DNA of 64,000 nt, taken from positions 327,856,001 to 327,920,000 of the forward strand of contig OZ024742.1 in assembly GCA_964016885.1 (NCBI GenBank), written 5' to 3'. The translations under genes were made by a program, and so were the position numbers. Under the pieces are notes generated by a model. The model made no database searches and was not told the origin of the DNA. It worked only from the letters and a program-made list of their open reading frames with translations. Below, piece after piece: positions 3,165 through 63,415 of this stretch (the first letter of the stretch is position 1; every line of letters starts with the position of its first letter). Source of the DNA: Eledone cirrhosa. Taxonomy: Eukaryota.

Positions 3165-3168
3165 ATCA

Positions 3169-4031: not shown

Positions 4032-4063
<32 letters not shown>

Positions 4064-4116: not shown

Positions 4117-4147
<31 letters not shown>

Positions 4148-4286
4148 CCACAATTGCCAACACCATCACCATAATCACTACGACCATTACCATCACCATC
4201 ATCATCATCATCACCATCATCATCATCGTCACCTCAATTGCCAACACCATCACCATAATCACTACCACCCTCACCATCACCATCAC

Positions 4287-4318
<32 letters not shown>

Positions 4319-4379
4319 CCATCACCATAATAGCAAACATCATCACCATATTCAACACCATCATCGTCATCACCATCAC

Positions 4380-4436
<57 letters not shown>

Positions 4437-4470
4437 GACCATCATCAACATCACTATCATCATCGTATCT
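3503..4470. repeat. Degenerate (GAT)n then (CAT)n trinucleotide low-complexity tract
   Basis: GAT/GGT-rich at 3503-3990, switching to CAT/CAC-rich at 3990-4470. It contains three copies of CAATTGCCAACACCATCACCATAATCACTAC at ~84-bp spacing. Confidence 0.85.
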
Positions 4471-5274: not shown

Positions 5275-6076
5275 AGGAATGAGAAATAAGATTGATTGAA
5301 GGACGGGTGGGGTGGAATTGGAAAAATATGTCCTTAGATAAAAATAACAGGTCCATACATGTTGACACCTTTATATATATATATATATATATATATTACG
5401 TAATCGGTTGTGTCGATTCGATCGATGCCGATTATTCGGCTACTAATTTCCTATAATCCAAGTATGCATTGTCTTTCCAGTAATTTCCAGTTGTGTAGAC
5501 CAGCAAGTTTGAGCCTTAGGAACAGAGTTATATTGCACCACTTGGCTTAGAGTGTGTTTCATAGGAAATAGCATGTTTTTTATGTTTCTACTTGTTGATT
5601 CAATGGTTTTCTGGTTCCAGTTTACGTTTCTATGAAAAGCTATTTATCGACACAATGGACTATATCACCCATACCAATTATCCGCCGATTAATTGGTGCA
5701 ACCGAAATATATATATACATTTACACACACGCATGCGTATGTATGTTCCCACTTAAACCAACACATTCATGTTTGTATATGTATATATAAATATATATAT
5801 ATATATATTATATTATATTTACATATATATATATATGTAATATATTTACACATACACACACATATATATGTGTCTGTATGTATATATATATGTATGTATA
5901 TATGAATGTGTATATATATATATATATATATAGATATAGATGTGTGTGAGTGTGTGCATGTGTGTGTTTGTGTGTGAATCATGCAATATAATGTAATATA
6001 ATATAATAGTTTGTCAACAAGACGGTTTAATGATCGCAGGTGATCAATCAAATGTTGACAGTTACCATTTCAAAGA

Positions 6077-6140
6077 CATTTAGAGACTTAATGTAAAATA
6101 AGAGAATGTACCATTACGTTCCACATAAAGAACTGCACCT
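6077..6140. repeat. Array-boundary linker copy L1
   Basis: CATTTAGAGACTTAATGTAAAATAAGAGAATGTACCATTACGTTCCACATAAAGAACTGCACCT. It is 51/64 identical, ungapped, to 55474-55537. Confidence 0.85.
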
Positions 6141-9100
6141 ACTTCCCTGCCATCGCCAGCATACCCAATATCACATACACAAAGACCACCATTAACACAT
6201 CCACCACAAATACCATCGCTGTCATCACTACCAACAACACCAGAAACATCTCCATCACAACCACAACAAATACCAGCGCTGTCAACACTGTCAACAACAC
6301 CAACAACACCACCATCCCAACCACCACAAACACCATCACCTGCAACACCACCAGCAACACCAACAACACCAACATCACAACCACCACAAATACCATCACC
6401 TTTATCACCACCAACAACACCAACAACACCACCATCACAACCACCACAAATACCATCACCTTCATCACCACCAGCAACACCAACAACACCAACATCACAA
6501 CCACCACAAATACCATCACCTTTATCACCACCAACAACACCAACAACACCACCATCACAACCACCACAAATACCATCACCTTCAACACCACCAACAACAC
6601 CAACAACACCAACATCACAACCACCACAAATACCATCACCTTCAACACCACCAACAACACCAACAACACCACCATCACAACCACCACAAATACCATCACC
6701 TTCAACACCACCAACAACACCAACAACACCACCATCACAACCACCACAAATACCATCACCTTCAACACCACCAACAACACCAACAACACCACCATCACAA
6801 CCACCACAAATACCATCACCTTCAACACCACCAACAACACCAACAACACCACCATCACAACCACCACAAATACCATCACCTTCAACACCACCAACAACAC
6901 CAACAGCACCACCATCACAACCACCACAAATACCATCACCTTCATCACCACCAACAACACCAACAACACCACCATCACAACCACCACAAATACCATCACC
7001 TTCATCACCACCAACAACACCAACAACACCACCATCACAACCACCACAAATACCATCACCTTCAACACCACCAACAACACCAACAACACCACCATCACAA
7101 CCACCACAAATACCATCACCTTCAACACCACCAACAACACCAACAGCACCACCATCACAACCACCACAAATACCATCACCTTCATCACCACCAACAACAC
7201 CAACAACACCACCATCACAACCACCACAAATACCATCACCTTCAACACCATCAACAACACCAGCAACACCACCATCACAACCACCACAAATACCATCACC
7301 TTCAACACCACCAACAACACCAACAACACCACCATCACAACCACCACAAATACCATCACCTTCAACACCACCAACAACACCAACAACACCACCATCACAA
7401 CCACCACAAATACCATCACCTTCAACACCACCAACAACACCAACAACACCACCATCACAACCACCACAAATACCATCACCTTCAACACCACCAACAACAC
7501 CAACAACACCACCATCACAACCACCACAAATACCATCACCTTCATCACCACCAACAACAACACCACCATCACATCCACCACAAATACCATCACCTTCATC
7601 ACCACCAACAACACCAGCAACACCACCATCACAACCACCACAAATACCATCACCTTCAACACCACCAACAACACCAACAACACCACCATCACAACCACCA
7701 CAAATACCATCACCTTCATCACCACCAACACCACCAACAACAACACCACCATCACATCCACCACAAATACCATCACCTTCATCACCACCAACAACACCAA
7801 CAACACCACCATCACAACCACCACAAATAACATCACCTTCATCACCACCAACAACACCAACAACACCACCATCACAACCACCACAAATACCATCACCTTC
7901 ATCACCACCAACAACAACACAACCATCACATCCACCACAAATACCATCACCTTCATCACCACCAACACCACCAACAACAACACCACCATCACATCCACCA
8001 CAAATACCATCACCTTCATCACCACCAACAACACCAACAACACCACCATCACAACCACCACAAATACCATCACCTTCATCACCACCAACAACACCAACAA
8101 CACCACCATCACAACCACCACAAATACCATCACCTTCATCACCACCAACAACAACACCACCATCACAACCACCACAAATACCATCACCTTCATCACCACC
8201 AACAACACCAACAACACCACCATCACAACCACCACAAATACCATCACCTTCATCACCACCAACAACAACACCACCATCACATCCACCACAAATACCACCA
8301 TCTTCATCACCACCAACAACACCAGCAACACCACCATCACAACCACCACAAATACCATCACCTTCAACACCACCAACAACACCAGCAACACCACCATCAC
8401 AACCAACACAAATACCATCACCTTCATCACCACCAACAACACCTTCATCACCACCATCACAACCACTACAAATACCATCACCTTCAACACCACCAACAAC
8501 AGCACCACCATCACAACCACCACAAATACCATCACCTTCAACACCACCAACAAAACCAACAACACCACCATCACAACCACCACAAATACCATCACCTTCA
8601 ACACCACCAACAAAACCAACAACACCACCATCACAACCACCACAAATACCATCACCTTCAACACCACCAACAACACCAGCAACACCACCATCACAACCAC
8701 CACAAATACCATCACCTTCAACACCACCAACAACACCAACAGCACCACCATCACAACCACCACAAATACCATCACCTTCAACACCACCAACAACACCAGC
8801 AACACCACCATCACAACCACCACAAATACCATCACCTTCAACACCACCAACAAAACCAACAACTCCACCATCACAACCACCACAAATACCATCACCTTCA
8901 ACACCACCAACAACACCAACAACACCACCATCACAACCAGCACGAATACCATCACCTTCAACACCACCAACAAAACCAACAACACCACCATCACAACCAC
9001 CACAAATATCATCACCTTCAACACCACCAACAACACCAACATCACCACCATCACAACCACCACAAATACCATCACCTTCATCACCACCAACAACAACACC

Positions 9101-9854
9101 GCCATCACAACCACCACAAATACCATCACCTTCAACACCACCAACAACACCAACAACACCAACATCACAACCACCACAAATACCATCACCTTCAACACCA
9201 CCAACAACACCAACAACACCACCATCACAACCAGCACGAATACCATCACCTTCAACACCACCAACAACACCAACAACACCACCATCACAACCACCACAAA
9301 TACCATCACCTTCAACACCACCAACAAAACCAACAACACCACCATCACGACCACCACAAATACCATCAACTTCAACACCATCAACACCACCAACAACACC
9401 ACCATCACAACCACCTCAAATACCATCACCTTCAACACCACCAACAACACCAGCAACACCACCATTACAACCACCACAAATACCATCACCTTCATCACCA
9501 CCATCACAACCACCACAAATACCATCACCTACATCACCACCAATAACACCAGCAACACCACCATCACAACCACCACAAATACCATCACCTTCATCACCAC
9601 CAACAACACCAACAACACCACCATCACAACCACCACAAATACCATCACCTTCATCACCACCAACAACACCAACAACACCACCATCACAACCACCACAAAT
9701 ACCATCACCTACATCACCACCAATAACACCAGCAACACCACCATCACAACCACCACAAATACCATCACCTTCATCACCACCAACAACACCAACAGCACCA
9801 CCATCACAACACTAAAAATACCATCAACATCATCACCATCAACAATACCAATAA
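6129..9854 (+). CDS. Possible mucin-like Pro/Thr/Ser exon or pseudo-exon (PPSQPPQIPSPSTPPTTPTT repeats); no start codon
   Basis: Stop-free frame from RTAPTSLPSPAYPISHTQRPP... up to a -1 indel at ~9811 and TAA at 9852-9854. There is no ATG, so it would need splicing. Openness is expected from composition alone. Confidence 0.2.
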
Positions 9855-12800
9855 CAACAGCATCACAACAACCACAAATACCATCACCTTCATCACCACC
9901 ATCACAACCACCACAAATACCATCAACATCACCACCACCAACAACACCACCATCACAACCACCACAAATACCATCACCTTCATCCCCACCAACAGCACCA
10001 CCATCACAACCACCACAAATACCATCACCTTCATTACCACCAACAACACCAGCAACACCACCATCACAACAACCACAAATAACATCAACATCATCACCAT
10101 CAATAATACCAATAACACCACCATCACAACAACCACAAATAACATCAACATCATCACCACCAACAACACCAACAACACCACCATCACAACCACCACAAAT
10201 ACCATCACCTTCATCACCACCAACAACACCAACAAAACCACCATCACAACCACCACAAATACCATCACCTTCATCACCACCAACAACACCAACAGCACCA
10301 CCATCACAACCACTACAAATACCATCACCTTCAACACCACCAACAACACCAACAACACCACCATCACAACCACCACAAATACCATCACCTTCAACACCAT
10401 CAACACCACCAACAACACCACCATCACAACCACCACAAATACCATCACCTTCAACACCACCAACAACTCCAGCAACACCACCATCACAACCACCACAAAT
10501 ACCATCACCTTCATCACCACCATCACAACCACCACAAATACCATCACCTACATCACCACCAATAACACCAGCAACACCACCATCACAACCACCACAAATA
10601 CCATCACCTTCATCACCACCAACAACACCAGCAACACCACCATCACAACCACCACAAATACCATCACCTTCATCACCACCAACAACACCAACAGCACCAC
10701 CATCACAACACTAAAAATACCATCAACATCATCACCATCAACAATACCAATAACAACAGCATCACAACAACCACAAATACCATCACCTTCATCACCACCA
10801 TCACAACCACCACAAATACCATCAACATCACCACCACCAACAACACCACCATCACCACCACCACAAATACCATCACCTTCATCACCACCAACAACACCAC
10901 AATCACAACCACCACAAATACCATCACCTTCATCCTCACCAACAGCACCACCATCACAACCACCACAAATACCATCACCTTCAACACCACCAACAAAACC
11001 AACAACACCACCATCACAACCACCACAAATACCATCACCTTCATCACCACCAACAACACCAACAACACCACCATCACAACCACCACAAATACCATCACCT
11101 TCATCACCACCAACAATACCAACAGCACCACCATCACATCCACCACAAATACCATCACCTTCAACACCACCAACAACACCAGCAACACCATCACAACAAC
11201 CACAAATACCATCACCTTCATCACCATCACCACCAACAACAACACCACCATCACAACCACCACAAATAACATCAACATCATCACCACCAGCAACACCAAC
11301 AACACCACCATCACAACCACCACAAATACCATCACCTTCATTACCACCAACAACACCAGCAACACCACCATCAAAACAACCACAAATAACATCAACATCA
11401 TCACCATCAACAATACCAATAACACCACCATCACAACAACCACAAATAACATCAACATCATCACCACCAACAACACCAGCAACACCACCATCACATCCAC
11501 CACAAATACCATCACCTTCATTACCACCAACAACACCAGCAACACCACCATCACAACAACCACAAATAACATCAACATCATCACCATCAACAATACCAAT
11601 AACACCACCATCACAACAACCACAAATAACATCAACATCATCACCACCAACAACACCAACAACACCACCATCACAACCACCACAAATACCATCACCTTCA
11701 TCACCACCAACAACACCAACAACACCACCATCACAACCACCACAAATACCATCACCTTCATCACCACCAACAACACCAACAGCACCACCATCAAAACCAC
11801 CACAAATACCATCACCTTCATCACCACCAACAACACCAACAGCACCACCATCACAACACTAAAAATACCATCAACATCATCACCATCAACAATACCAATA
11901 ACAACAGCATCACAACAACCACAAATACCATCACCTTCATCACCACCATCACAACCACCACAAATACCATCAACATCACCACCACCAACAACACCACCAT
12001 CACCACCACCACAAATACCATCACCTTCATCACCACCAACAACACCACCATCACAACCACCACAAATACCATCACCTTCATCCCCACCAACAGCACCACC
12101 ATCACAACCACCACAAATACCATCACCTTCAACACCACCAACAAAACCAACAACACCACCATCACAACCACCACAAATACCATCACCTTCATCACCACCA
12201 ACAACACCAACAACACCACCATCACAACCACCACAAATACCATCACCTTCATCACCACCAACAATACCAACAGCACCACCATCACATCCACCACAAATAC
12301 CATCACCTTCAACACCACCAACAACACCAGCAACACCATCACAACAACCACAAATACCATCACCTTCATCACCATCACCACCAACAACAACACCACCATC
12401 ACAACCACCACAAATAACATCAACATCATCACCACCAGCAACACCAACAACACCACCATCACAGCCACCACAAATACCATCACCTTCATTACCACCAACA
12501 ACACCAGCAACACCACCATCAAAACAACCACAAATAACATCAACATCATCACCATCAACAATACCAATAACACCACCATCACAACAACCACAAATAACAT
12601 CAACATCATCACCACCAACAACACCAGCAACACCACCATCACATCCACCACAAATACCATCACCTTCATTACCACCAACAACACCAGCAACACCACCATC
12701 ACAACAACCACAAATAACATCAACATCATCACCATCAACAATACCAATAACACCACCATCACAACAACCACAAATAACATCAACATCATCACCACCAACA

Positions 12801-15800
12801 ACACCAACAACACCACCATCACAACCACCACAAATACCATCACCTTCATCACCACCAACAACACCAACAACACCACCATCACAACCACCACAAATACCAT
12901 CACCTTCATCACCACCAACAACACCAACAGCACCACCATCAAAACCACCACAAATACCATCACCTTCATCACCACCAACAACACCAACAACACCACCATC
13001 ACAACCACCACAAATACCATCACCTTCATCACCACCAACAACACCAACAACACCACCATCACATCCACCACAAATACCATCATCTTTATCACCACCAACA
13101 ATACCAACAGCACCACCATCACAACCACCACAAATACCATCACCTTCAACACCACCAACAACAGCACCACCATCACAACCACCACAAATACCATCACCTT
13201 CAACACCACCAACAACAACACCACCATCACAACCACCACAAATACCATCACCTTCAACACCACCAACAACACCAACAACACCACCATCACATCCACCACA
13301 AATACCATCACCTTCATCACCACCAACAACACCAACAACACCACCATCACAACCACCACAAATACCATCATCTTCATCACCACCAACAACAACACCGCCA
13401 TCACAACCACCACAAATACCATCACCTTCAACACCACCAACAACAGCACCACCATCACAACCACCACAAATACCATCACCTTCAACACCACCAACAACAA
13501 CACCACCATCACAACCACCACAAATACCATCACCTTCAACACCACCAACAACACCAACAACACCACCATCACATCCACCACAAATACCATCACCTTCATC
13601 ACCACCAACAACACCAACAACACCACCATCACAACCACCACAAATACCATCATCTTCATCACCACCAACAACAACACCGCCATCACAACCACCACAAATA
13701 CCATCACCTTCAACACCACCAACAACAACATCACCATCACAACCACCACAAATACCATCACCTTCATCACCATCAACAACACCAACAACACCGCCATCAC
13801 AACCACCACAAATACCATCACCTTCATCACCACCAACAACAACACCGCCATCACAACCACCACAAATACCATCACCTTTATCACCACCAACAACACCAAC
13901 AACATCACCATCACAACCACCACAAATACCATCACCTTCATCACCATCAACAACACCAACAACATCACCATCACAACCACCACAAATACCATCACCTTCA
14001 TCACCATCAACAACACCAACAACACCGCCATCACAACCACCACAAATACCATCACCTTCAACACCACCAACAACACCAACAACACCACCATCACAACCAG
14101 CACGAATACCATCACCTTCAACACCACCAACAAAACCAACAACACCACCATCACAACCACCACAAATACCATCACCTTCAACACCACCAACAACACCAGC
14201 AACACCACCATCACAACCAGCACGAATACCATCACCTTCAACACCACCAACAAAACCAACAACACCACCATCACGACCACCACAAATACCATCAACTTCA
14301 ACACCATCAACACCACCAACAACACCACCATCACAACCACCACAAATACCATCACCTTCAACACCACCAACAACACCAGCAACACCACCATCACAACCAC
14401 CACAAATACCATCACCTTCATCACCACCATCACAACCACCACAAATACCATCACCTACATCACCACCAATAACACCAGCAACACCACCATCACAACCACC
14501 ACAAATACCATCACCTTCATCACCACCAACAACACCAACAACACCACCATCACAACCACCACAAATACCATCACCTTCATCACCACCAACAACACCAACA
14601 ACACCACCATCACAACCACCACAAATACCATCACCTACATCACCACCAATAACACCAGCAACACCACCATCACAACCACCACAAATACCATCACCTTCAT
14701 CACCACCAACAACACCAACAGCACCACCATCACAACACTAAAAATACCATCAACATCATCACCATCAACAATACCAATAACAACAGCATCACAACAACCA
14801 CAAATACCATCACCTTCATCACCACCATCACAACCACCACAAATACCATCAACATCACCACCACCAACAACACCACCATCACAACCACCACAAATACCAT
14901 CACCTTCATCCCCACCAACAGCACCACCATCACAACCACCACAAATACCATCACCTTCATTACCACCAACAACACCAGCAACACCACCATCACAACAACC
15001 ACAAATAACATCAACATCATCACCATCAATAATACCAATAACACCACCATCACAACAACCACAAATAACATCAACATCATCACCACCAACAACACCAACA
15101 ACACCACCATCACAACCACCACAAATACCATCACCTTCATCACCACCAACAACACCAACAAAACCACCATCACAACCACCACAAATACCATCACCTTCAT
15201 CACCACCAACAACACCAACAGCACCACCATCACAACCACTACAAATACCATCACCTTCAACACCACCAACAACACCAACAACACCACCATCACAACCACC
15301 ACAAATACCATCACCTTCAACACCATCAACACCACCAACAACACCACCATCACAACCACCACAAATACCATCACCTTCAACACCACCAACAACTCCAGCA
15401 ACACCACCATCACAACCACCACAAATACCATCACCTTCATCACCACCATCACAACCACCACAAATACCATCACCTACATCACCACCAATAACACCAGCAA
15501 CACCACCATCACAACCACCACAAATACCATCACCTTCATCACCACCAACAACACCAGCAACACCACCATCACAACCACCACAAATACCATCACCTTCATC
15601 ACCACCAACAACACCAACAGCACCACCATCACAACACTAAAAATACCATCAACATCATCACCATCAACAATACCAATAACAACAGCATCACAACAACCAC
15701 AAATACCATCACCTTCATCACCACCATCACAACCACCACAAATACCATCAACATCACCACCACCAACAACACCACCATCACCACCACCACAAATACCATC

Positions 15801-18800
15801 ACCTTCATCACCACCAACAACACCACCATCACAACAACCACAAATACCATCACCTTCATCACCACCATCACAACCACCACAAATACCATCAACATCACCA
15901 CCACCAACAACACCACCATCACCACCACCACAAATACCATCACCTTCATCCCCACCAACAGCACCACCATCACAACCACCACAAATACCATCACCTTCAA
16001 CACCACCAACAAAACCAACAACACCACCATCACAACCACCACAAATACCATCACCTTCATCACCACCAACAACACCAACAACACCACCATCACAACCACC
16101 ACAAATACCATCACCTTCATCACCACCAACAATACCAACAGCACCACCATCACATCCACCACAAATACCATCACCTTCAACACCACCAACAACACCAGCA
16201 ACACCATCACAACAACCACAAATACCATCACCTTCATCACCATCACCACCAACAACAACACCACCATCACAACCACCACAAATAACATCAACATCATCAC
16301 CACCAGCAACACCAACAACACCACCATCACAACCACCACAAATAACATCAACATCATCACCATCAACAATACCAATAACACCACCATCACAACAACCACA
16401 AATAACATCAACATCATCACCACCAACAACACCAGCAACACCACCATCACATCCACCACAAATACCATCACCTTCATTACCACCAACAACACCAGCAACA
16501 CCACCATCACAACAACCACAAATAACATCAACATCATCACCATCAACAATACCAATAACACCACCATCACAACAACCACAAATAACATCAACATCATCAC
16601 CACCAACAACACCAACAACACCACCATCACAACCACCACAAATACCATCACCTTCATCACCACCAACAACACCAACAGCACCACCATCAAAACCACCACA
16701 AATACCATCACCTTCATCACCACCAACAACACCAACAACACCACCATCACAACCACCACAAATACCATCACCTTCATCACCACCAACAACACCAACAACA
16801 CCACCATCACATCCACCACAAATACCATCATCTTTATCACCACCAACAATACCAACAGCACCACCATCACAACCACCACAAATACCATCATCTTCATCAC
16901 CACCAACAACAACACCGCCATCACAACCACCACAAATACCATCACCTTCAACACCACCAACAACAGCACCACCATCACAACCACCACAAATACCATCACC
17001 TTCAACACCACCAACAACAACACCACCATCACAACCACCACAAATACCATCACCTTCAACACCACCAACAACACCAACAACACCACCATCACATCCACCA
17101 CAAATACCATCACCTTCATCACCACCAACAACACCAACAACACCACCATCACAACCACCACAAATACCATCACCTTCATCACCACCAACAATACCAACAG
17201 CACCACCATCACATCCACCACAAATACCATCACCTTCAACACCACCAACAACACCAGCAACACCATCACAACAACCACAAATACCATCACCTTCATCACC
17301 ATCACCACCAACAACAACACCACCATCACAACCACCACAAATAACATCAACATCATCACCACCAGCAACACCAACAACACCACCATCACAACCACCACAA
17401 ATAACATCAACATCATCACCATCAACAATACCAATAACACCACCATCACAACAACCACAAATAACATCAACATCATCACCACCAACAACACCAGCAACAC
17501 CACCATCACATCCACCACAAATACCATCACCTTCATTACCACCAACAACACCAGCAACACCACCATCACAACAACCACAAATAACATCAACATCATCACC
17601 ATCAACAATACCAATAACACCACCATCACAACAACCACAAATAACATCAACATCATCACCACCAACAACACCAACAACACCACCATCACAACCACCACAA
17701 ATACCATCACCTTCATCACCACCAACAACACCAACAGCACCACCATCAAAACCACCACAAATACCATCACCTTCATCACCACCAACAACACCAACAACAC
17801 CACCATCACAACCACCACAAATACCATCACCTTCATCACCACCAACAACACCAACAACACCACCATCACATCCACCACAAATACCATCATCTTTATCACC
17901 ACCAACAATACCAACAGCACCACCATCACAACCACCACAAATACCATCATCTTCATCACCACCAACAACAACACCGCCATCACAACCACCACAAATACCA
18001 TCACCTTCAACACCACCAACAACAGCACCACCATCACAACCACCACAAATACCATCACCTTCAACACCACCAACAACAACACCACCATCACAACCACCAC
18101 AAATACCATCACCTTCAACACCACCAACAACACCAACAACACCACCATCACATCCACCACAAATACCATCACCTTCATCACCACCAACAACACCAACAAC
18201 ACCACCATCACAACCACCACAAATACCATCATCTTCATCACCACCAACAACAACACCGCCATCACAACCACCACAAATACCATCACCTTCAACACCACCA
18301 ACAACAACATCACCATCACAACCACCACAAATACCATCACCTTCATCACCATCAACAACACCAACAACACCGCCATCACAACCACCACAAATACCATCAC
18401 CTTCATCACCACCAACAACAACACCGCCATCACAACCACCACAAATACCATCACCTTTATCACCACCAACAACACCAACAACATCACCATCACAACCACC
18501 ACAAATACCATCACCTTCATCACCATCAACAACACCAACAACATCACCATCACAACCACCACAAATACCATCACCTTCATCACCATCAACAACACCAACA
18601 ACACCGCCATCACAACCACCACAAATACCATCACCTTCAACACCACCAACAACACCAACAACACCACCATCACAACCACCACAAATACCATCACCTTCAA
18701 CACCACCAACAACACCAGCAACACCACCATCACAACCACCACAAATACCATCACCTTCAACACCACCAACAACACCAACAACACCACCATCACAACCACC

Positions 18801-48800: not shown

Positions 48801-51800
48801 AATCACAACCACCACAAATACCATCACCTTCAACACCACCAACAAAACCAACAACACCAAAATCACAACCACCACAAATACCATCACCTTCAACACCACC
48901 AACAACACCAACAACACCACCATCACATCCACCACAAATACCATCACCTTCAACACCACCAACAACACCAACAACACCAAAATCACAACCACCACAAATA
49001 CCATCACCTTCAACACCACCAACAAAACCAACAACACCAAAATCACAACCACCACAAATACCATCACCTTCAACACCACCAACAACACCAACAGCACCAA
49101 AATCACAACCACCACAAATACCATCACCTTCAACACCACCAACAACACCAACAGCACCACCATCACAACCACCACAAATACCATCACCTTCAACACCACC
49201 AACAACACCAACAGCACCAAAATCACAACCACCACAAATACCATCACCTTCAACACCACCAACAACACCAACAGCACCACCATCACAACCACCACAAATA
49301 CCATCACCTTCAACACCACCAACAACACCAACAGCACCAAAATCACAACCACCACAAATACCATCACCTTCAACACCACCAACAACACCAACAACACCAA
49401 AATCACATCCACCACAAATACCATCACCTTCAACACCACCAACAAAACCAACAACACCAAAATCACAACCACCACAAATACCATCACCTTCAACATCACC
49501 AACAACACCAACAGCACCAAAATCACAACCACCACAAATACCATCACCTTCAACACCACCAACAACACCAACAGCACCACCATCACAACCACCACAAATA
49601 CCATCACCTTCAACACCACCAACAACACCAACAACACCACTATCACAACCACCACAAATACCATCACCTTCAACAGCACCAACACCACCAACAACACCAC
49701 CATCACAACCACCACAAATACCATCACCTTCAACACCACCAACAACACCAACAACACCACCATCACAACCACCACAAATACCATCACCTTCAACACCACC
49801 AACAACACCAACAACACCACCATCACAACCACCACAAATACCATCACCTTCAACACCACCAACAACAGCAACAACACCACCATCACAACCACCACAAATA
49901 CCATCACCTTCATCACCACCAACAACACCAACAACACCACCATCACAACCACCACAAATACCATCACCTTCAACAGCACCAACACCACCAACAACACCAC
50001 CATCACAACCACCACAAATACCATCACCTTCAACAGCACCAACACCACCAACAACACCACCATCACAACCACCACAAATACCATCACCTTCAACACCATC
50101 AACAACACCAGCAACACCACCATCACATCCACCACAAATACCATCACCTTCAACACCACCAACAACACCAACAGCACCAAAATCACAACCACCACAAATA
50201 CCATCACCTTCAACACCACCAACAACACCAACAACACCACCATCACAACCACCACAAATACCATCACCTTCAACACCATCAACAACACCAGCAACACCAC
50301 CATCACAACCACCACAAATACTATCACCACCAACACCACCAACAACACCAACATCACCACCATCACAACCACCACAAATACCATCACCTTCAACACCACC
50401 AACAACACCAACAGCACCAAAATCACAACCACCACAAATACCATCACCTTCATCACCACCAACAACACCAACATCACCACCATCACAACCACCACAAATA
50501 CTATCACCTTCAACACCACCAACAACACCAACATCACCACCATCACAACCACCACAAATACCATCACCTTCATCACCACCAACAACACCAGCAACACCAC
50601 CATCACAACCACCACAAATACCATCACCTTCAACACCACCAGCAACACCACCATCACAACCACCACAAATACCATCACCTTCAACACCACCAACAAAACC
50701 AACAACACCACCATCACAACCACCACAAATACCATCACCTTCATCACAAACAACAACACCAACATCACCACCATCACAACCACCACAAATACCATCGCCT
50801 TCAACACCACCAACAACACCAACAACACCACCATCACAACCACCACAAATACCATCACCTTCATCACAAACAACAACACCAACAACACCACCATCACAAC
50901 CACCACAAATACCATCACCTTCAACACCACCAACAACACCAACAGCACAACCATCACAACTACCACAAATACCATCACCTTCAACACAACCAACAACACC
51001 ACCATCACAACCACCACAAATACGATCACCATCTTCATCACCACCAACAACAGCAACACCACCACCATCACAACCACCACAAATACTATCACCTTCAACA
51101 CCACCAACAACACCAACAACACCACCATCACAACCACCACAAATACCATCACCTTCATCACCACCAACAACACCGCCATCACAACCACCACAAATACCAT
51201 CACCTTCAACACCACCAACAACACCACCATCACAACCACCACAAATACCGTCACCTTCAACACCACCAGCAACACCAACAACACCACCATCACAACCACC
51301 ACAAATACCATCACCTTCAACACCACCAACAACACCGCCATCACAACCACCACAAATACCATCACCTTCAACACCACCAACAACACCACCTTCACAACCA
51401 CCACAAATACCGTCACCTTCAACACCACCAGCAACACCAACAACACCACCATCACAACCACCACAAATACCATCACCTTCAACACCACCAACAACACCAG
51501 CAACACCACCATCACAACCACCACAAATACCATCACATTCAACACCACCAACAACATCAACAACACCACCATCACAACAACCACAAATACCATCACCTTC
51601 AACACCACCAACAACAACACCACCATCACATCCACCACAAATACCATCAACATCATCACCACCAACAACACCAATAACACCACCATCACAACAACCACAA
51701 ATAACATCAACATCATCACCACCAGCAACACCAGCAACGCCACCATCACAACCACCACAAATACCATCACCTTCATCACCGCCAACAACACCAACAACAC

Positions 51801-54800
51801 CACCATCACAACCACCACAAATACCATCACCTTCATCACCACCAACAACACCAACAACACCACCATCACAACCACCACAAATACCATCACCTTCATCACC
51901 ACCAACACCAACAACACCACCATCACAACCACCACAAATACCATCACCTTCATCACAACCAACATCACCAGCAACACCACCATCACAACCACACCACAAA
52001 TACCATCACCTTCATCACCACCAACAACACCAACAACACCACCATCATAACCACCACAAATATCATCAACATCATCACCACCAACAACACCACCATCACA
52101 ACCCCCGCAAATACCATCACCTTCATCACCACCAACAACACCAACAACACCACCATCACAACCACCACAAATACCATCACCTTCATCACAACCAACATCA
52201 CCAGCAACACCACCATCACAACGACACCACAAATACCATCACCTTCATCACCACCAACAACACCAACAACACCACCATCACAACTACCACAAATACCATC
52301 ACCTTCATCACCACCACCAACAACAACAACAACACCACCATCAAAACCACCACAAATACCATCACCTTCAACACAACCAACATCACCAGCAACACCACTA
52401 TCACAACCACACCACAAATACCATCACCTTCATCACAACCAACAACACCGACAACACCACCGTCACAACCACACCACAAATACCATCACCTTCATCACCA
52501 CCAACAACACCAACAACACCACCATCACAACCACCACAAATACCATCACCTTCATCACCACCACCAACAACACCAACAACACCACCATCACAACCACCAC
52601 AAATACCATCACCTTCATCACAACCAACAACACCGACAACACCACCATCACAACCACCACAAATACCATCACCTTCATCACCACCAACAACACCAACAAC
52701 ATCACCATCACAACCACCACAAATACCATCACCTTCATCACAACCAACAACACCAACAACACCACCATCACAACCATACCACAAATACCATCACCTTCAA
52801 CACCACCAACAACACCAACAACACCACCATCACAACCATCACAAATACCATCACCTTCATCACAACCAACATCACCAGCAACACCACCATCACAACAACC
52901 ACAAATACCATCACCTTCATCACAACCAACAACACCGACAACACCACCGTCACAACCACACCACAAATACCATCACCTTCATCACAACCAACAACACCAA
53001 CATCACCACCATCACAACCACACCACAAATACCATCACCTTCATCACCACCAACAACACCAACAACACCAGCATCACAACCACCACAAATACCATCACCT
53101 TCATCACCACCAACAACACCAACAACACCACCATCACAACCACCACAAATACCATCACCTTCATCACCACCAACAACACCAACAACGCCACCATCACATC
53201 CACCACAAATACCATCACCTTCATCACCACCAACAACACCAACAACACCACCATCACAACCACCACAAATACCATCACCTTCATCACAACCAACATCACC
53301 AGCAACACCACCATCACAACCACACCACAAATACCATCACCTTCATCACCACCAACAACACCAACAACACCACCATCATAACCACCACAAATATCATCAA
53401 CATCATCACCACCAACAACACCACCATCACAACCCCCGCAAATACCATCACCTTCATCACCACCAACAACACCAACAACACCACCATCACAACCACCACA
53501 AATACCATCACCTTCATCACAACCAACATCACCAGCAACACCACCATCACAACGACACCACAAATACCATCACCTTCATCACCACCAACAACACCAACAA
53601 CACCACCATCACAACTACCACAAATACCATCACCTTCATCACCACCACCAACAACACCAACAACACCACCATCACAACCACCACAAATACCATCACCTTC
53701 ATCACCACCGCCAACAACACAAACAACACCACCATCAAAACCACCACAAATACCATCACCTTCATCACAACCAACAACACCGACAACACCACCGTCACAA
53801 CCACACCACAAATACCATCACCTTCATCACCACCAACAACACCAACAACACCACCATCACAACCACCACAAATACCATCACCTTCATCACCACCACCAAC
53901 AACACCAACAACACCACCATCACAACCACCACAAATACCATCACCTTCATCACAACCAACAACACCGACAACACCACCATCACAACCACCACAAATACCA
54001 TCACCTTCATCACCACCAACAACACCAACAACATCACCATCACAACCACCACAAATACCATCACCTTCATCACAACCAACAACACCAACAACACCACCAT
54101 CACAACCATACCACAAATACCATCACCTTCAACACCACCAACAACACCAACAACACCACCATCACAACCATCACAAATACCATCACCTTCATCACAACCA
54201 ACATCACCAGCAACACCACCATCACAACAACCACAAATACCATCACCTTCATCACAACCAACAACACCGACAACACCACCGTCACAACCACACCACAAAT
54301 ACCATCACCTTCATCACAACCAACAACACCAACATCACCACCATCACAACCACACCACAAATACCATCACCTTCATCACCACCAACAACACCAACAACAC
54401 CACCATCACAACCACCACAAATACCATCACCTTCATCACCACCAACAACACCAACAACACCACCATCACAACCACCACAAATACCATCACCTTCATCACC
54501 ACCAACAACACCAACAACACCACCATCACATCCACCACAAATACCATCACCTTCATCACCACCAACAACACCAACAACACCACCATCACAACCACCACAA
54601 ATACCATCACCTTCATCACAACCAACAACACCAACAACACCACCATCACAACCACCACAAATACCATCACCTTCATCACCACCAACAACACCAACAACAC
54701 CACCATCACAACCAATACAAATATCATCACCTTCAACACCACCAACAACACCAACAACACCACCATCACAACCACCACAAATACCATCACCTTCATCACC

Positions 54801-55470
54801 ACCAACAACACCAACAACACCACCATCACAACCACCACAAATACCATCACCTTCATCACCACCAACAACACCAACAACACCACCATCACAACCAATACAA
54901 ATACCATCACCTTCATCACAACCAACAACACCAACAACACGACCATCACAACCACACCACAAATACCATCACCTTCATCACCACCAACAACACCAACAAC
55001 ACCACCATCACAACCAATACAAATACCATCACCTTCATCCCAACCAACAACACCAACAACACGACCATCACAACCACACCACAAATACGATCACCTTCAT
55101 CACCACCAACAACACCAACAACACCACCATCACAACCACACCACAAATACGATCACCTTCATCACAACCAACAACACCGAGAACACCACCATCACAACCA
55201 CACCACAAATACCATCACCTTCATCACAACCAACAACACTAACAACACCACCATCACAACCACCACAAATACCATCACCTTCATCACCACCAACAACACC
55301 AAAAACACCACCATCACAACCACCACAAATACCATCACCTTCAACACCACCAACAACACCAACAACACCACCATCACAACCACCACAAACACCATCACCT
55401 GCAACACCACCAGCATCACTGGAACCATCTCCGTCACAACTAACACAATTAATATCAACACCTCTGATAT
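6140..55470. repeat. Giant 60-bp tandem array (~49 kb, roughly 800-900 units) with higher-order structure
   Basis: Consensus CACCATCACAACCACCACAAATACCATCACCTTCA(A/T)CACCACCAACAACACCAACAACAC. Unit-length variants differ mostly by multiples of 3 (39, 48, 51, 57, 63 bp). Edge units are diverged. Confidence 0.97.
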
Positions 55471-55473
55471 TAC

Positions 55474-55537
55474 CATTTAGGGATTTAATAAAAATTAGTA
55501 GAATGTAGCATTAACTTTCACATAGATAACTGCACCT
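55474..55537. repeat. Array-boundary linker copy L2
   Basis: CATTTAGGGATTTAATAAAAATTAGTAGAATGTAGCATTAACTTTCACATAGATAACTGCACCT. It contains an acceptor-like TTAAC-TTTCACATAG ending at 55525. Confidence 0.85.
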
Positions 55538-58500
55538 CCATCACCATCACCACCCACAGCACTACCACCTACACGACTACCACCACCAGTACTACTACCA
55601 TCACCACCTACACCACTACCATCACCACCTGCAGCACTACCATCACCACCTACACCACTACCATCACCACCTACACGACTACCACCACCAGCACTACTAC
55701 CATCACCACCTACACCACTACCATCACCACCTGCAGCACTACCATCACCACCTACACCACTACCATCACCACCTACACCACTACCATCACCACCTACACC
55801 ACTACCATCACCACCTGCAGCACTACCATCACCACCTACACCACTACCATCACCACCTACACCACTACCATCACCACCTGCAGCACTACCATCACCACCT
55901 ACACCACTACCATCACCACCTACACCACTACCAGCACTACTACCATCATCACCTACACCACTACCACCACCACCAGCACTACTACCATCACCACCTACAC
56001 CACTACCATCACCACCTGCAGCACTACCATCACCACCTACACCACTACCATCACCACCTACACCACTACCACCACCAGCACTACTACCATCATCACCTAC
56101 ACCACTACCACCACCACCACCACCACCAGCACTACTACCATCACCACCTACACCACTACCATCACCACCTGCAGCACTACCATCACCACCTACACCACTA
56201 CCATCACCACCTACACCACTACCATCACCACCTGCAGCATTACCATCACCACCTACACCACTACCACCACCACCAGCACTACTACCATCACCACCTACAC
56301 CACTACCATCACCACCTACACTACTACCATCACCACCTACACCACTACCATCACCACCTACACTACTACCATCACCACCTACACCACTACCATCACCACC
56401 TACACCACTACCATCACCACCTACACCATTACCATCACCACCTACAACACTACCATCACCACCTACACTACTACAATCACTACCTACACCACTACCATCA
56501 CCACCTACAACCCCTACACCACTACCATCACCACCTACAACACTACCATCATCACCTACACCACTACCATCACCACCTACAACACTACCATCACCACCTA
56601 CACCACTACCATCACCACGTACAGCACTACCATCACCACCTACAGCACTACCATCATCACCTACACTACTACCATCACTACCTACACCACTAACATCACC
56701 ACCTACACCACTACCATCACCACCTGCACCACTATCATCACCACCTGCACCACTACCCTCACCACCTGCACCACTATCATCACCACCTGCACCACTACCC
56801 TCACCACCTGCACCACTATCATCACCACCTGCACCACTACCCTCACCACCTACACCACTACCATCACCACCTGCACCACTATCATCACCACCTGCACCAC
56901 TACCCTCACCACCTACACCATTACCATCACCACCTACACCACTACCATCACCACCTACAACACTACCATCACCACCTACAACACTACCATCACCACCTGC
57001 ACCACTACCATCACCACCTGCACCACTACCATCACCACCTACAACACTACCATCACCACCTACACCACTACCATCACCACCTGCACCACTATCATCAACA
57101 CCTGCACCACTACCCTCACCACCTACACCACTACCATCACCACCTGCACCACTACCATCACCACCTACACCACTACCATCACCACCTACACCACTACCCT
57201 CACCACCTACACCATTACCATCACCACCTATACCACTACCATCACCACCTGCACCACTACCATCACCACCTACAACACTACCATCACCACCTACACCACT
57301 ACCATCACCACCTGCACCACTACCATCACCATCTGCACCACTACCATCACCACCTACACCACTACCATCACCACCTACACCAATACCATCACCACCTGCA
57401 CCACTACCATCACCACCTACACCACTACCATCACCACCTACAACACTACCATCACCACCTACAACACTACCATCATCACCTACACCACTACCATCACCAC
57501 CTACACCACTACCATCACCACCTACACCACTACCATCACCACCTGCACCACTACCATCACCACCTACACCACTACTATCACCACCTACACCACTACTATC
57601 ACCTCCTGCACCACTACCATCACCACCTACACCACTACCATCACCACCTACACCACTACCATCACCACCTACAGCACTACCATCACCACCTACACCACTA
57701 CCATCACCACCTACACCACTACTATCACCACCTACACCACTACCATCACCACCTACACGACTACCACCACCAGTACTACTACCATCATCACCTACACCAC
57801 TACCATCACCACCTGCAGCACTACCATCACCACCTACACCACTACCATCACCACCTACACCACTACCATCACCACCTGCAGCACTACCATCACCACCTAC
57901 ACCACTACCATCACCACCTACACCACTACCACCACCAGCACTACTACCATCATCACCTACACCACTACCATCACCACCTACAACACTACCATCACCACCT
58001 ACACCACTACCACCACCACCAGCACTACTACCATCACCACCTACACCACTACCATCACCACCTGCAGCACTACCATCACCACCTACACCACTACCATCAC
58101 CACCTACACCACTACCACCACCAGCACTACTACCATCATCACCTACACCACTACCACCACCACCAGCACTACTACCATCACCACCTACACCACTACCATC
58201 ACCACCTGCAGCACTACCATCACCACCTACACCACTACCATCACCACCTACACCACTACCATCACCACCTGCAGCATTACCATCACCACCTACACCACTA
58301 CCACCACCACCAGCACTACTACCATCACCACCTACACCACTACCATCACCACCTACACTACTACCATCACCACCTACACCACTACCATCACCACCTACAC
58401 TACTACCATCACCACCTACAACACTACCATCACCACCTACACCACTACCATCACCACCTACACCACTACCATCACCACCTACACCACTACCATCACCACC

Positions 58501-61500
58501 TACACCACTACCATCACCACCTACAACACTACCATCACCACCTACACTACTACCATCACTACCTACACCACTACCATCACCACCTACAACCCCTACACCA
58601 CTACCATCACCACCTACAACACTACCATCATCACCTACACCACTACCATCACCACGTACAGCACTACCATCATCACCTACACCACTACCATCACCACGTA
58701 CAGCACTACCATCACCACCTACAGCACTACCATCATCACCTACACTACTACCATCACCACCTACAACACTACCATCAACACCTACACCACTACCATCACC
58801 ACCTGCACCACTATCATCACCACCTGCACCACTACCCTCACCACCTACACCACTACCATCACCACCTGCACCACTACCATCACCACCTACACCACTACCA
58901 TCACCACCTACACCACTACCCTCACCACCTACACCATTACCATCACCACCTATACCACTACCATCACCACCTGCACCACTACCATCACCACCTACAACAC
59001 TACCATCACCACCTACACCACTACCATCACCACCTGCACCACTACCATCACCACCTGCACCACTACCATCACCACCTACACCACTACCATCACCACCTAC
59101 ACCAATACCATCACTACCTGCACCACTACCATCACCACCTACACCACTACCATCACCACCTGCAGCACTACCATCATCACCTACACTACTACCATCATCA
59201 CCTACACCACTACCATCACCACCTACACCACTACCATCACCACCTACACCACTACCATCACCACCTGCACCACTACCATCACCACCTACACCACTACTAT
59301 CACCACCTACACCACTACTATCACCTCCTGCACCACTACCATCTCCACCTACACCACTACCATCACCACCTACACCACTACCATCACCACCTACAGCACT
59401 ACCATCACCACCTACACCACTACCATCACCACCTACACCACTACTATCACCACCTACACCACTACCATCACCACCTACACGACTACCACCACCATTACTA
59501 CTACCATCATCACCTACACCACTACCACCACCACCAGCACTACTACCACCACCACCAGCACCACTACCATCACCACCTGCAGCACTACCATCATCACCTA
59601 CACTACTACCATCATCACCTACACCACTACCATCACCACCTACACCACTACCATCACCACCTACACCACTACCATCACCACCTACACCACTACCATCACC
59701 ACCTACACCACTACCATCACCACCTACACCACTACCATCTCCACCTGCACCACTACCATCACCACCTACACCACTACCACCACCACCAGCACTACTACCA
59801 TCACCACCTACACCACTACCATCACCACCTACACCACTACCCTCACCACCTACACCATTACCATCACCACCTATACCACTACCATCACCACCTGCACCAC
59901 TACCATCACCACCTACAACACTACCATCACCACCTTTACCACTACCATCACCACCTACACCACTACCATCTCCACCTGCAGCATTACCATCACCACCTAC
60001 ACCACTACCACCACCACCAGCACTACTACCATCACCACCTACACCACTACCATCACCACCTACAACACTACCATCACCACCTACACCACTACCATCACCA
60101 CCTACACCACTACTATCACCACCTACACCACTACCATCACCACGTACACCACTACCATCATCACCTACACCACTACCATCACCACCTACACCACTACCAT
60201 CACCACCTACACCACTACTATCACCACCTACACCACTACCATCACCACCTACAACACTACCATCACCACCTACACCACTACCATCACCACCTACACCACT
60301 ACTATCACCACCTACACCACTACCATCACCACCTACAGCACTACCATCACCACCTACACCACTACCATCACCACCTACACCACTACCATCACCACCTACA
60401 CAACTACCATCACCACCTACACCACTACCATCACCACCTACACCACTACCATCACCACCTACACCACTACCATCACCATCTACACCACTACCACCACCAC
60501 CAGCACTACTACCATCACCACCTACACCACTACCATCACCACCTACACCACTACCATCACCACCTACAACACTACCATCACCACCTACACCACTACCACC
60601 ACCACCAGCACTACTACCATCACCACCTACACCACTACCATCACCACGTACAGCACTACCATCATCACCTACACTACTACCATCACTACCTACACCACTA
60701 CCATCACCACCTACACCACTACCATCACCACCTACAGCACTACCATCACCACCTACACTACTACCATCACTACCTACACCACTACCATCACCACCTACAC
60801 CACTACCATCACCACCTACAGCACTACCATCACCACCTACACCACTACCATCACCACGTACAGCACTACCATCATCACCTACACTACTACCATCACTACC
60901 TACACCACTACCATCACCACCTGCACCACTACCATCACCACCTACAGCACTACCATCACCACCTACACCACTACCATCACCACCTACATCACTACCATCA
61001 CCACCTACACCACTACCATCACCACCTACACCACTACCATCACCACCTGCACCACTACCATCACCACCTACACCACTACCATCACCACCTACACCACTAC
61101 CATCACCACCTACACCACTACCATCACCACCTACACCACTACCATCACCACCTGCACCACTACCATCACCACCTACACAACTACCATCACCACCTACACC
61201 ACTACCATCACCACCTACACCACTACCATCACCACCTACAACACTACCATCACCACCTACACCACTACCACCAGCACCGCTACCATCACCACCTGCACCA
61301 CTATCATCACCACCTACACCACTACCATCACCACCAGCACGACTACCATTATCACCTACACCACTACCACCAACACCACCACCTCTACCATCACCAGCTG
61401 CACCACTACATCCCCTCCTGCACCACAACCATCACCACCTGCACCACTACCATCACCACCAGCACCACTTTCATCACCACCTACACCACTACCATCACCA

Positions 61501-62023
61501 CCTGCACCACTACCATCACCACCTCCAACCCCATCACCACTACCATCACCCTCAGCACCACTACCGTCACAACCTACACCACTACCACCACCAACAACAA
61601 CAACACCAGCACCGCTACCATCACCAGCTGCACCACTACATCACCACCTACACCACTACCATCACCACCTGCACCACTACCATCACCACCTCCAACACCA
61701 TCACCTCTACCATCACCCCCTACACCACTACCATCACCACTACCATCACCACCTACACCACTACCAACACCTCCTCCAACCCCATCACCACTACATCACC
61801 ACCTACACCACTACCATCACCACCTGCACCACTACCATCACCACCTCCAACACCATCACCTCTACCATCACCACCTGCACCACTACCATCACCACCTCCA
61901 ACCCCATCACCTCTACCATCACCACCTGCACCACTACCATCACCACTGTTTAGAGAATTAATAGATGGCATCGATGCTCATGAAATTAAGATGAAAGTAA
62001 CGGAGCATTCTAGAGAAACGTAA
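55526..62023 (+). CDS. Possible extensin/mucin-like Pro-rich exon (PLPSPPT repeats, ~2160 codons)
   Basis: After the putative acceptor CATAG|, the frame [15 protein letters not shown]... is stop-free to TAA at 62021-62023. Three -1 indels (~61410, 61640, 61795) restore the frame before ...PSPLFRELI. The last ~20 codons derive from the SINE. The antisense Gly-rich ORF 55495-61428 is an equally open alternative. Confidence 0.3.
55538..61947. repeat. 21-bp tandem array (~6.4 kb, ~300 units)
   Basis: Consensus ACCACTACCATCACCACCTAC. Internal block duplications are marked by rare variants 2079 bp (56511/58590) and 1722 bp (57380/59102) apart. Confidence 0.97.
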
Positions 62024-62226
62024 ACCCTTAACGTGACAATGCTAGCCCGTTGAATTACAAATACAGTCCATCCGACGGACTTCCAAATATCTTCCGACAA
62101 CCCAGGTTAACTGAGAAGGTAGGGGTCGACTCGAAGCTACCGTAAATAACATTTACTCAACATAGGAGGCAGTTGAATCGAACCCGAAACCGAATGACTT
62201 AAACCATTCATTCATGCTGTATCTAC
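61963..62226 (-). mobile_element. Degenerate tRNA-derived SINE with 12-bp target-site duplication
   Basis: Flanked by the direct repeat TAGAGAATTAAT (61951-61962 and 62227-62238). A B-box-like GGGTTCGATTC lies on the minus strand at ~62174-62185. Confidence 0.6.
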
Positions 62227-62244
62227 TAGAGAATTAATGTAAAA

Positions 62245-62587
62245 CTAGCAGATTTACCCGGCGTTGCCCGGGGTTTGAAATTCAACAAAGTGTAAACAAG
62301 AAACAAACGATAATATTAGTGATTTATCGTCAAATTAATCTGATGTTTATATTTCTGTCAATAAAATTGGTTATCTCCCTTACATCAATTTTGTTACCGA
62401 TAATTTTGATATCGATTTTTTGTTGCTCAACGTGGGTCTATTTGAACATTTTTGTGATGTGACCATCTTAGCGACCTGTGCAACGTGCACAAAATTTGAT
62501 CAAATTCGGTTGGTAATTGTAAAAGCCTTAGGTATCCAAAGTTGTACACAGACACACACACATCCTCGCTTTTATATATATAGAAGA
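62245..62587 (-). mobile_element. Non-autonomous Helitron
   Basis: The minus strand begins TCTTCTATATATA..., carries a (TG)n tract, and ends with the hairpin CCCGG-GCAACG-CCGGG followed by CTAG (62245-62248). Confidence 0.7.
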
Positions 62588-62624
62588 CTAGCAGAAAACC
62601 ACCCGGTGGGCGGTTTTCTGCTAG
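62588..62624. repeat. CTAG-bounded palindrome
   Basis: CTAGCAGAAAACCACCC-GGT-GGGCGGTTTTCTGCTAG, with 17-bp arms and 1 mismatch. Confidence 0.85.
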
Positions 62625-63104
62625 CAAATCTAGTGTATATACTGATATTGTTGAGATTTGGATGAGAAATGTTTTCGGCACCACATGTTCACCGTCTTTC
62701 GGTGTGTCTTTTATGCATGTATAAATATATATGTTATCTATACGGTGAAATCTTTGAAATAAATATATGTTAAAACGAAAAAGGAGAAAAAGAGAATAGT
62801 GACGGAAATATAAACGTTATGATACATAAACGTTATGATATAACGATGGAAATATATCTTCAAATGGTTCTTGGCATGGTGTCAAGTCAGAACCGCCTCG
62901 AACTGGTTACTTCTGGCTTGTGCAAGGTGTCTCTATAGCAACCAGCGATTCCCTCGGCCTCAGTGACCAAAGTCAGTGGAGAGGTGAAGGTAATGTTTCT
63001 ATAGCGACAGTGTTTCTCTTGGTAGTACCAAAGTGGAGAAAGGAAGGGGAAGGTAATATTTCTGTAGCACCTACATTTGAGTTTTAGGGAAGGACAGACA
63101 GACA

Positions 63105-63128: not shown

Positions 63129-63187
<59 letters not shown>

Positions 63188-63213
63188 CACACACAGAAAT
63201 GTATATATATTTC

Positions 63214-63256
<43 letters not shown>

Positions 63257-63415
63257 CACACACAGAAATGTATATATATTTCTGTGTGGATATATATATA
63301 TATATATTACACACACAGAAATGTAAATATATATTTCTGTGTGTATATATATATATATTTCTGTGTGTGTATATATATATATATATTACACACACAGAAA
63401 TGTATATATATTTCT
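63105..63415. repeat. Alternating head-to-head/tail-to-tail minisatellite
   Basis: ACACACAGAAAT and ATTTCTGTGTGT alternate about four times, separated by (TA)n runs of variable length. Confidence 0.85.

What the first reader, a model, noticed from the sequence alone, without database searches (positions are those of the whole stretch)
6062..62250. Two different giant arrays sit inside one repeated cassette: linker-array-linker-array-linker
Seen: the 64 bp before the 60-bp array (6077-6140) and before the 21-bp array (55474-55537) align without gaps at 51/64, and both end in AACTGCACCT exactly where the repeats start. A third partial linker (TTTAGAGAATTAAT[SINE]GTAAAA, 61949-62244) closes array 2. 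Both arrays give Pro/Thr/Ser-rich text in the same phase relative to the linker (both start T-A-P). Inference: an ancestral short module was tandemly duplicated, and each copy then grew its own minisatellite (period 60 versus 21). The result is either a modular mucin/extensin-like structural-protein locus or a repeat-seeding cassette, rather than two unrelated satellites.
Basis: partly seen in the sequence, partly recalled or inferred. Interest (0 to 1): 0.8.

Follow-up and report, generated by a model that had tools for sequence, protein, structure and literature searches.

The report
Twin minisatellites in an old triplication
A short AT-rich spacer occurs three times at one place in this animal genome, with a 49-kb and a 6-kb tandem repeat between the copies; this is likely an old local duplication whose simple-repeat parts grew into separate non-coding arrays, and likely not a mucin gene or a mobile cassette.

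Summary
The anatomy is real. The two 64-bp linkers match at 51/64 (shuffles reach 33-37). A third copy, split by an old SINE with a 12-bp target-site duplication and cut off by a younger dispersed element, matches linker 1 at 19/20. Linker and both monomers occur only at this locus of the 3.0-Gb assembly, at the stringency searched. One same-sample contig spans the middle junction.

Array 1 carries 36 internal frameshifts and 19 Pro-frame stops, amplified with its higher-order blocks. Neither array shows a synonymous excess in any of six frames, array 1 has no GTRA donor, and the middle linker has stops in all three forward frames. T-A-P is encoded by the shared linker itself. The linker is not dispersed and has no Helentron ends. 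Arrays of the same C/A triplets with 29- and 89-bp periods lie 4 kb away.

Verdict: most likely a non-coding, single-locus compound minisatellite (0.75). A terminal Pro-rich exon in array 2 is not excluded (0.12), because no RNA run of this species was listed. Interest is low.

The parts
6077..6140 (.). Linker 1: AT-rich 64-bp spacer; its last ~10 bp already read as decayed C/A triplets
   Evidence: single-locus
6141..55473 (.). Array 1: 60-bp monomer (20 triplets), about 830-840 copies, decayed at both ends, with nested higher-order blocks 99.8-100% identical at offsets of 1,059-23,413 bp; 36 internal frameshifting indels and 19 Pro-frame stops
   Evidence: 614 pattern hits genome-wide = 614 in the window
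55474..55537 (.). Linker 2: 51/64 identical to linker 1; stops in all three forward frames; an AG at 55524-55525 behind a short pyrimidine run is the one plausible splice acceptor
   Evidence: junction in one 628-bp contig of run X1
55538..61948 (.). Array 2: 21-bp monomer (7 triplets), 310 monomers; no frameshift until 61408, then three copies of one -1 deletion (61408, 61638, 61793)
   Evidence: 40 exact pattern hits genome-wide, all 40 in this array
61949..61962 (.). Linker 3, left piece; holds the left target-site duplication (61951-61962)
61963..62226 (-). Old SINE-like insertion (264 bp) with an RNA polymerase III B-box-like motif on the minus strand; 39 other listed copies are 70-80% identical
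   Evidence: the tRNA-SINE label is recalled from the motif, from no call
62227..62244 (.). Right target-site duplication (62227-62238) and the last 6 bp of linker 3
62245..62590 (+). Younger dispersed element of about 345 bp that begins exactly where linker 3 stops; 2021 candidates, the 39 other full-length copies listed 88-95% identical; Helitron/Helentron-like by its ends (label recalled)

Best explanation
Three copies of one short spacer bound two single-locus tandem arrays, and the whole is likely a non-coding compound minisatellite that arose when a small unit of spacer plus C/A-triplet tract was duplicated in tandem and each tract then likely expanded on its own. Shown: the three spacer copies, their uniqueness in the assembly at the stringency searched, the nested near-identical blocks, the decayed array ends, the amplified frameshifts and stops, and the two insertions in the third spacer. 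Inferred steps: (1) an old local duplication gave at least two and a part units; (2) triplet slippage set a 20-triplet period in one tract and a 7-triplet period in the other; (3) unequal exchange or conversion multiplied blocks of 1-23 kb, homogenising the interior while the ends and spacers, which cannot mispair, decayed; (4) a SINE and later a younger element landed in the third spacer. The Pro/Thr/Ser text is a by-product of an xCA triplet vocabulary with almost no G or T.
For: Linker identity far above shuffles. Single locus: each half of the linker has 2 hits genome-wide at up to 2 mismatches, both here; 60-mer 614 of 614; 21-mer 40 of 40. Array 1: 37 of 216 indel events shift the frame, 36 of them internal, from at least 3 origins, copied 4 to 27 times; 19 Pro-frame stops. 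Pro-frame synonymous changes: 17 observed against 20.4 expected in array 1, 11 against 12.5 in array 2, with no excess in any of six frames; the Pro-frame third position is the least variable (144 variant copies against 383 and 983). The decayed ends show no clear third-position excess (8/6/6 and 3/4/9 for positions 3/2/1). No GTRA in either array. The Thr frame of array 2 is open just as far as the Pro frame (2153 against 2165 codons), so openness is compositional. Same-vocabulary arrays with non-triplet periods of 29 and 89 bp lie about 4 kb beyond array 2 on the other strand; the 29-mer pattern is also single-locus (35 of 35). In the 100 kb of flanks, 9 of the 11 Pfam-positive ORFs among the 150 sent are retroelement pieces.
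Against: No RNA of this species was listed, so expression is untested. Array 2 keeps its Pro frame for 5.87 kb behind a plausible acceptor, and 18 of its 22 indel events are in frame. In array 1, 179 of 216 events are in frame too; triplet slippage predicts this, but so would weak selection. Net phase is the same at the start and end of both arrays (about 1 in 9 by chance). Substitution counts in homogenised repeats have little power (87 and 37 distinct alleles). The flank scan misses exons under 85 codons, so the locus may lie in an intron or carry unseen small exons. No orthologous locus could be examined.
Confidence: 0.75

Rival explanations
1. Array 2 (or the first 3.7 kb of array 1) is a long terminal exon of a secreted Pro/Thr/Ser-rich mucin- or extensin-like protein; the linker would be the 3' end of an intron, duplicated with its exon, and most of array 1 a decayed or untranslated copy.
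For: An AG after a short pyrimidine run at 55525 opens in phase on an ORF of 2165 codons (55526-62020), about 1960 of them in the Pro register; array 1 opens with 1228 Pro-rich codons (6129-9812). AATAAA at 62360 and 62758. The best-kept part of the linker is its 3' end (10 of 10).
Against: No synonymous excess. The equivalent AG in linker 1 is displaced by 2 bases and so gives another phase. The array 2 ORF passes through His and Thr registers and ends inside the SINE. Both AATAAA sites lie in or beyond the younger element. 0 of 8 array translations hit Pfam. The 80-residue Thr-frame text over linker 1 had no hit at E<=0.01 among 1807 candidates (weak evidence). No start codon with a signal peptide is seen next to either array.
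Confidence: 0.12
2. The linker is the end of a non-autonomous mobile element (Cg_HINE or Pearl type) that carries and seeds tandem arrays.
For: Conserved short boxes flanking arrays, in one case two different arrays in a row, are described for oyster Cg_HINE elements (PMC7492417, passages). A Helitron-like element abuts linker 3.
Against: Linker and monomers are single-locus. The 9 extra 3-mismatch hits listed (8 shown from one 28-bp array on C1572, 3 single sites, controls 5) give only 30-35/64 in the 7 loci aligned. No self-inverted 7-mer or hairpin in the linker (z -0.46 to +0.82), and the only 11-bp inverted matches between the flanks are TG/CA runs plus one AT-rich word inside the younger element. 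The copies are direct repeats in tandem, not left and right ends. Five other copies of the adjacent element have no linker at their 5' side.
Confidence: 0.05
3. The locus is non-coding but functional, for example a long repeat RNA or a structural chromatin block, and the spacers are kept for a role.
For: Extreme strand asymmetry over 56 kb (GC skew about -0.95), large size, and spacers still recognisable after 20% divergence.
Against: No conservation or expression data. Divergence is spread along the spacer (13 changes), the third copy was broken by two insertions, and no tRNA gene lies in the window.
Confidence: 0.05
4. The arrangement or the 49-kb length is an assembly artefact.
For: Some higher-order blocks are 100% identical over 0.8-1.4 kb.
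Against: The middle junction lies in one 628-bp contig with 0 differences (same sample as the assembly, not independent). 139 distinct monomers among 627 gap-free ones and recurring diagnostic variants argue for real copies. The 20% spacer divergence cannot come from a false duplication.
Confidence: 0.03

Closest known systems
Large single-locus tandem arrays with higher-order structure (the SL class of the mouse survey, PMC3218096; passages seen)
   Same: One locus, short monomer (17-54 bp examples there), array of many kb, higher-order blocks.
   Different: Here two different periods sit in the successive units of an older tandem duplication whose spacers survive; array 1 (49 kb) is longer than the 4-12 kb of the five rows seen in that table.
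Microsatellite-derived minisatellites evolving by slippage and unequal exchange (classical model; recalled, no paper read)
   Same: Monomers built from one triplet vocabulary, mostly whole-triplet indels, homogeneous interior, decayed ends.
   Different: Nothing in mechanism; only the size and the surviving spacers stand out.
Cg_HINE / Pearl non-autonomous Helentrons of bivalves (PMC7492417; passages)
   Same: Short conserved flanks next to tandem arrays; two different arrays in one element in one case.
   Different: Not dispersed; no subTIR, inverted repeat or 3' palindrome; the flanks are direct copies of one sequence.
Entamoeba tRNA-gene arrays with variable short tandem repeats between conserved units (PMC2652664; abstract and outline)
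   Same: Conserved unit alternating with repeats that change sequence.
   Different: No tRNA or other gene in the spacer; only two and a part units; the spacer is 20% diverged, not conserved.
Mucin PTS exons and plant extensins (features recalled)
   Same: One frame gives Pro/Thr/Ser text in tandem units.
   Different: Frame not kept, no synonymous excess, no signal peptide or flanking domain found, no transcript evidence.

Membership tests
Mucin / extensin-like PTS gene | One reading frame kept through the repeat domain | tested here: not met
   Array 1: 36 internal frameshifts, 19 Pro-frame stops. Array 2: stop-free, but changes register three times after 61408.
Mucin / extensin-like PTS gene | Pro/Thr/Ser-rich tandem text | tested here: met
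   follows from xCA triplets, and the His/Gln and Thr/Asn frames are also largely open.
Mucin / extensin-like PTS gene | Codon-level purifying signal (synonymous excess) | tested here: not met
   17 vs 20.4 expected and 11 vs 12.5 expected; none in six frames. Power is limited.
Mucin / extensin-like PTS gene | Linkers that join modules by read-through or splicing | tested here: not met
   Stops in all three forward frames of linker 2; no GTRA in either array.
Mucin / extensin-like PTS gene | Signal peptide or mucin-associated domains (VWD, C8, CysD, SEA; recalled) in neighbouring exons | tested here: inconclusive
   None among the 150 longest of 218 flank ORFs or 8 array translations; exons under 85 codons were not scanned.
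Mucin / extensin-like PTS gene | Transcribed and spliced | not testable with these tools
   No RNA run of organism A among the 23 rows.
Cg_HINE / Helentron-borne arrays | Dispersed copies across the genome | tested here: not met
   2 hits per linker half, both here; extras at 3 mismatches do not extend. Copies below about 85-90% identity would be missed.
Cg_HINE / Helentron-borne arrays | 5' subTIR with inverted repeat; 3' subTIR with palindrome | tested here: not met
Single-locus large minisatellite with higher-order repeats | Head-to-tail short monomers over kilobases | tested here: met
Single-locus large minisatellite with higher-order repeats | Confined to one locus | tested here: met
   614 of 614 and 40 of 40 pattern hits.
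Single-locus large minisatellite with higher-order repeats | Near-identical higher-order blocks and decayed ends | tested here: met
Single-locus large minisatellite with higher-order repeats | Length polymorphism among individuals | not testable with these tools
   Only one sample holds the stretch.

The most novel reading that the evidence does not exclude
The spacer is a duplicated splice-acceptor end, and array 2 is a live 6.5-kb terminal exon for an extensin-like (PLPSPPT)n secreted protein that ends in an exapted SINE, while its sister exon (array 1) ran away to 49 kb and lost its frame: a structural-protein gene caught turning into satellite DNA, or being born from it.
Probability: 0.1. 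Interest if true: 0.65.

Novelty: new member of a known kind. Interest (0 to 1): 0.2.

Why it matters
On the best reading it is a tidy natural record of minisatellite birth. Two sister tracts from one duplication, in the same neighbourhood, settled on different periods (60 and 21 bp) and sizes (49 and 6 kb), and the spacers and two insertions give the order of events. It is also a warning for annotation: C/A-triplet arrays give stop-free frames of thousands of codons that gene finders can call mucins. It shows no new mechanism. If array 2 proved to be translated, it would be a striking case of traffic between satellite DNA and a structural-protein exon.

Tried and rejected
A DNA search of the genome with linker 1 found only itself, not even linker 2, so it is too insensitive; patterns were used instead.

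Homology upstream of the linkers: none beyond the stated start. Homology between array starts or ends beyond composition: 116 and 167 of 500 triplet shuffles reach the score. The remaining 42 bp of linker 3 were sought in 164 kb: best 26/42, not found.

Contigs laid on the linker 1 junction: none of 4 runs covers 5990-6165, including two runs of the source sample; a hole in filtered, roughly 5x contigs proves nothing. Runs of other organisms (X4, X6, X7, X18) cover only the low-complexity parts, not the linker. The 20 rows with shares of 0.05-0.08, the 5 RNA rows among them, are not evidence; I laid 4 of those 20.

A C2H2 hit about 11 kb upstream looked like a host gene, but 6 of its 56 relatives carry a reverse-transcriptase domain, so it is read as a LINE tail. 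A minus-strand Gly-rich reading was rejected: no synonymous excess, and the acceptor-like AG occurs only at linker 3.

Earlier findings of the scan: none returned. Six paper searches listed no description of this locus or arrangement; I saw listings only, except for the four papers named, and opened no supplements.
Full report
Setting. The window lies on a 379-Mb contig of a 3.0-Gb assembly. Its flanks are rich in TA and TG microsatellites and retroelement pieces. In Octopus vulgaris about 66% of the genome is repeats, with SINEs at 11.6% (PMC13282606, first of three parts read).

The 64-bp stretches at 6077-6140 and 55474-55537 agree at 51 positions without gaps. The next best match in 164 kb is 34/64 and 100 shuffles reach 33-37. 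A third copy starts at 61949, directly after array 2. It is split by a 264-bp insertion with an exact 12-bp target-site duplication, and its 20 bases match linker 1 at 19 and linker 2 at 15. The insertion has at least 39 relatives at 70-80% identity, so it is old. The third copy stops at 62244, exactly where a younger dispersed element of about 345 bp begins (88-95% identity to the 39 other full-length copies listed); the missing 42 bp were not found in 164 kb. A 628-bp contig from a run of the probable source sample spans 55395-55600 with no difference; this supports the junction but is not independent. The first junction was not covered in 4 runs, which proves nothing.

Everything is single-locus. 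Patterns for the two halves of the linker gave 2 hits each at up to 2 mismatches, both in the window. At 3 mismatches a 25-base pattern counted 13 hits against 5 for the reversed control; of the 11 extra hits 8 come from one unrelated 28-bp array, and the 7 loci aligned reach only 30-35/64. The 60-mer pattern has 614 hits genome-wide and 614 in the window. All 40 exact hits of the 21-mer pattern are in array 2. These searches would miss linker relatives below about 85-90% identity.

Array anatomy. Both monomers are strings of xCA triplets: 20 triplets in array 1, 7 in array 2. They are no more alike than shuffled triplets (1033 of 2000). Array 1 has 844 monomers by wraparound alignment, 627 gap-free, 139 distinct. 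Blocks of 0.8-2.7 kb recur at 99.8-100% identity at offsets from 1,059 to 23,413 bp. The interior is about 96% identical to the column majority; the first 60 and last 75 bases fall to 71-75%. Old, 20%-diverged spacers around young, near-identical blocks are what slippage followed by unequal exchange would leave (model recalled).

It does not behave like a coding repeat. Of 216 indel events in array 1, 179 keep the frame and 37 shift it; 36 are internal and come from at least three origins (-1 in 5 copies, -10 in 4, +2 in 27) spread with the blocks. The Pro register carries 19 stops, and the first Pro-frame ORF ends at 9812. Synonymous changes are not in excess in any of six frames of either array; for the Pro frame 17 against 20.4 expected and 11 against 12.5. 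The Pro-frame third position is the least variable of the three. Neither array contains GTRA on the plus strand, and linker 2 has stops in all three forward frames, so the modules can be joined neither by read-through nor by ordinary splicing. T-A-P is encoded by the shared linker, so the common phase is inherited, not independent evidence. Long open frames are compositional: the Thr frame of array 2 is open for 2153 codons and the Pro frame for 2165.

Against my reading. Array 2 follows a plausible acceptor, stays in the Pro register for 5.87 kb, and its three -1 deletions add up to restore the register before the stop at 62021. But array 1 has frameshift-free runs of 12.5 kb, so 5.9 kb is not exceptional. 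The substitution tests have little power in homogenised repeats. No RNA run of this organism was listed. The flank scan covered the 150 longest of 218 candidate ORFs; 11 had Pfam hits, 9 of them retroelement pieces and 2 below their cut-offs. Small exons would be missed.

It is not a mobile cassette of the known kind. Oyster Cg_HINE elements are dispersed and have subTIRs, an inverted repeat and a 3' palindrome (PMC7492417, passages). The linker has none of these and no hairpin, and it is not dispersed.

Local controls. About 4 kb beyond array 2, on the other strand, lie abutting arrays of the same vocabulary with periods of 89 and 29 bp, which cannot hold a frame; the 29-mer pattern is also single-locus (35 of 35). 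An 84-bp unit of spacer plus variable triplet tract repeats 5.5 times at 3996-4464, a small version of the proposed ancestor. Several hundred contigs per run align to the low-complexity start of array 2, also in runs of another organism, so the vocabulary is common.

Verdict. A single-locus compound minisatellite inside an old local triplication, most likely non-coding (0.75). The closest known class is the large single-locus array with higher-order structure (PMC3218096, passages). I found no description of this locus in six searches, in which I saw mostly listings. The arrangement is a neat record of repeat birth, not a new kind of system. The exon reading for array 2 stays open at about 0.1 until RNA is available.

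Noticed in passing
L007:1820-6900 (about 1.8-6.9 kb past the window end): Abutting arrays of 89 bp (8.8 copies), 29 bp (118 copies) and GGT-type tracts, same triplet vocabulary on the other strand; the 29-mer pattern is single-locus.
   Followed up: partly
window 3996-4464: 84-bp repeat, 5.5 copies, of a short unique part plus a variable ATC/ACC tract: a miniature spacer-plus-microsatellite array.
   Followed up: partly
window 63153-63415: Repeat of a short unique core with (TA)n of variable length, periods 53-79.
   Followed up: no
window 9809-55198: All 36 internal frameshifts of array 1 are -1 modulo 3 and fall at monomer positions 51-54, although they have at least three origins; a local slippage hot spot is the likely cause.
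   Followed up: partly
window 6079-6098, 55476-55495, 61949-62244: Linker 3 is closer to linker 1 (19/20) than to its neighbour linker 2 (15/20); 20 bases are too few to order the duplications.
   Followed up: no
window 62588-62625: A short palindromic stub resembling the 5' end of the preceding element follows it directly.
   Followed up: no
L003:8188-9000 (+): Three C2H2-like fingers at the end of a LINE-type ORF; relatives at 38-63% identity, 6 of 56 with a reverse-transcriptase domain.
   Followed up: yes
L006:445-2991, L005:519-2174, L003:3668-4993, L004:8826-9635, L010:728-5617: Reverse-transcriptase ORFs of LINE type and one with a GIY-YIG domain (Penelope-like) in the flanks.
   Followed up: no
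L041 (contig C1572): An unrelated 28-bp tandem array of at least 3 kb with a variable (AC)n part on a small contig.
   Followed up: no
window 1798-1988 and 3110-3165: Long inverted repeats by eye in the upstream flank, probably small non-autonomous DNA transposons.
   Followed up: no
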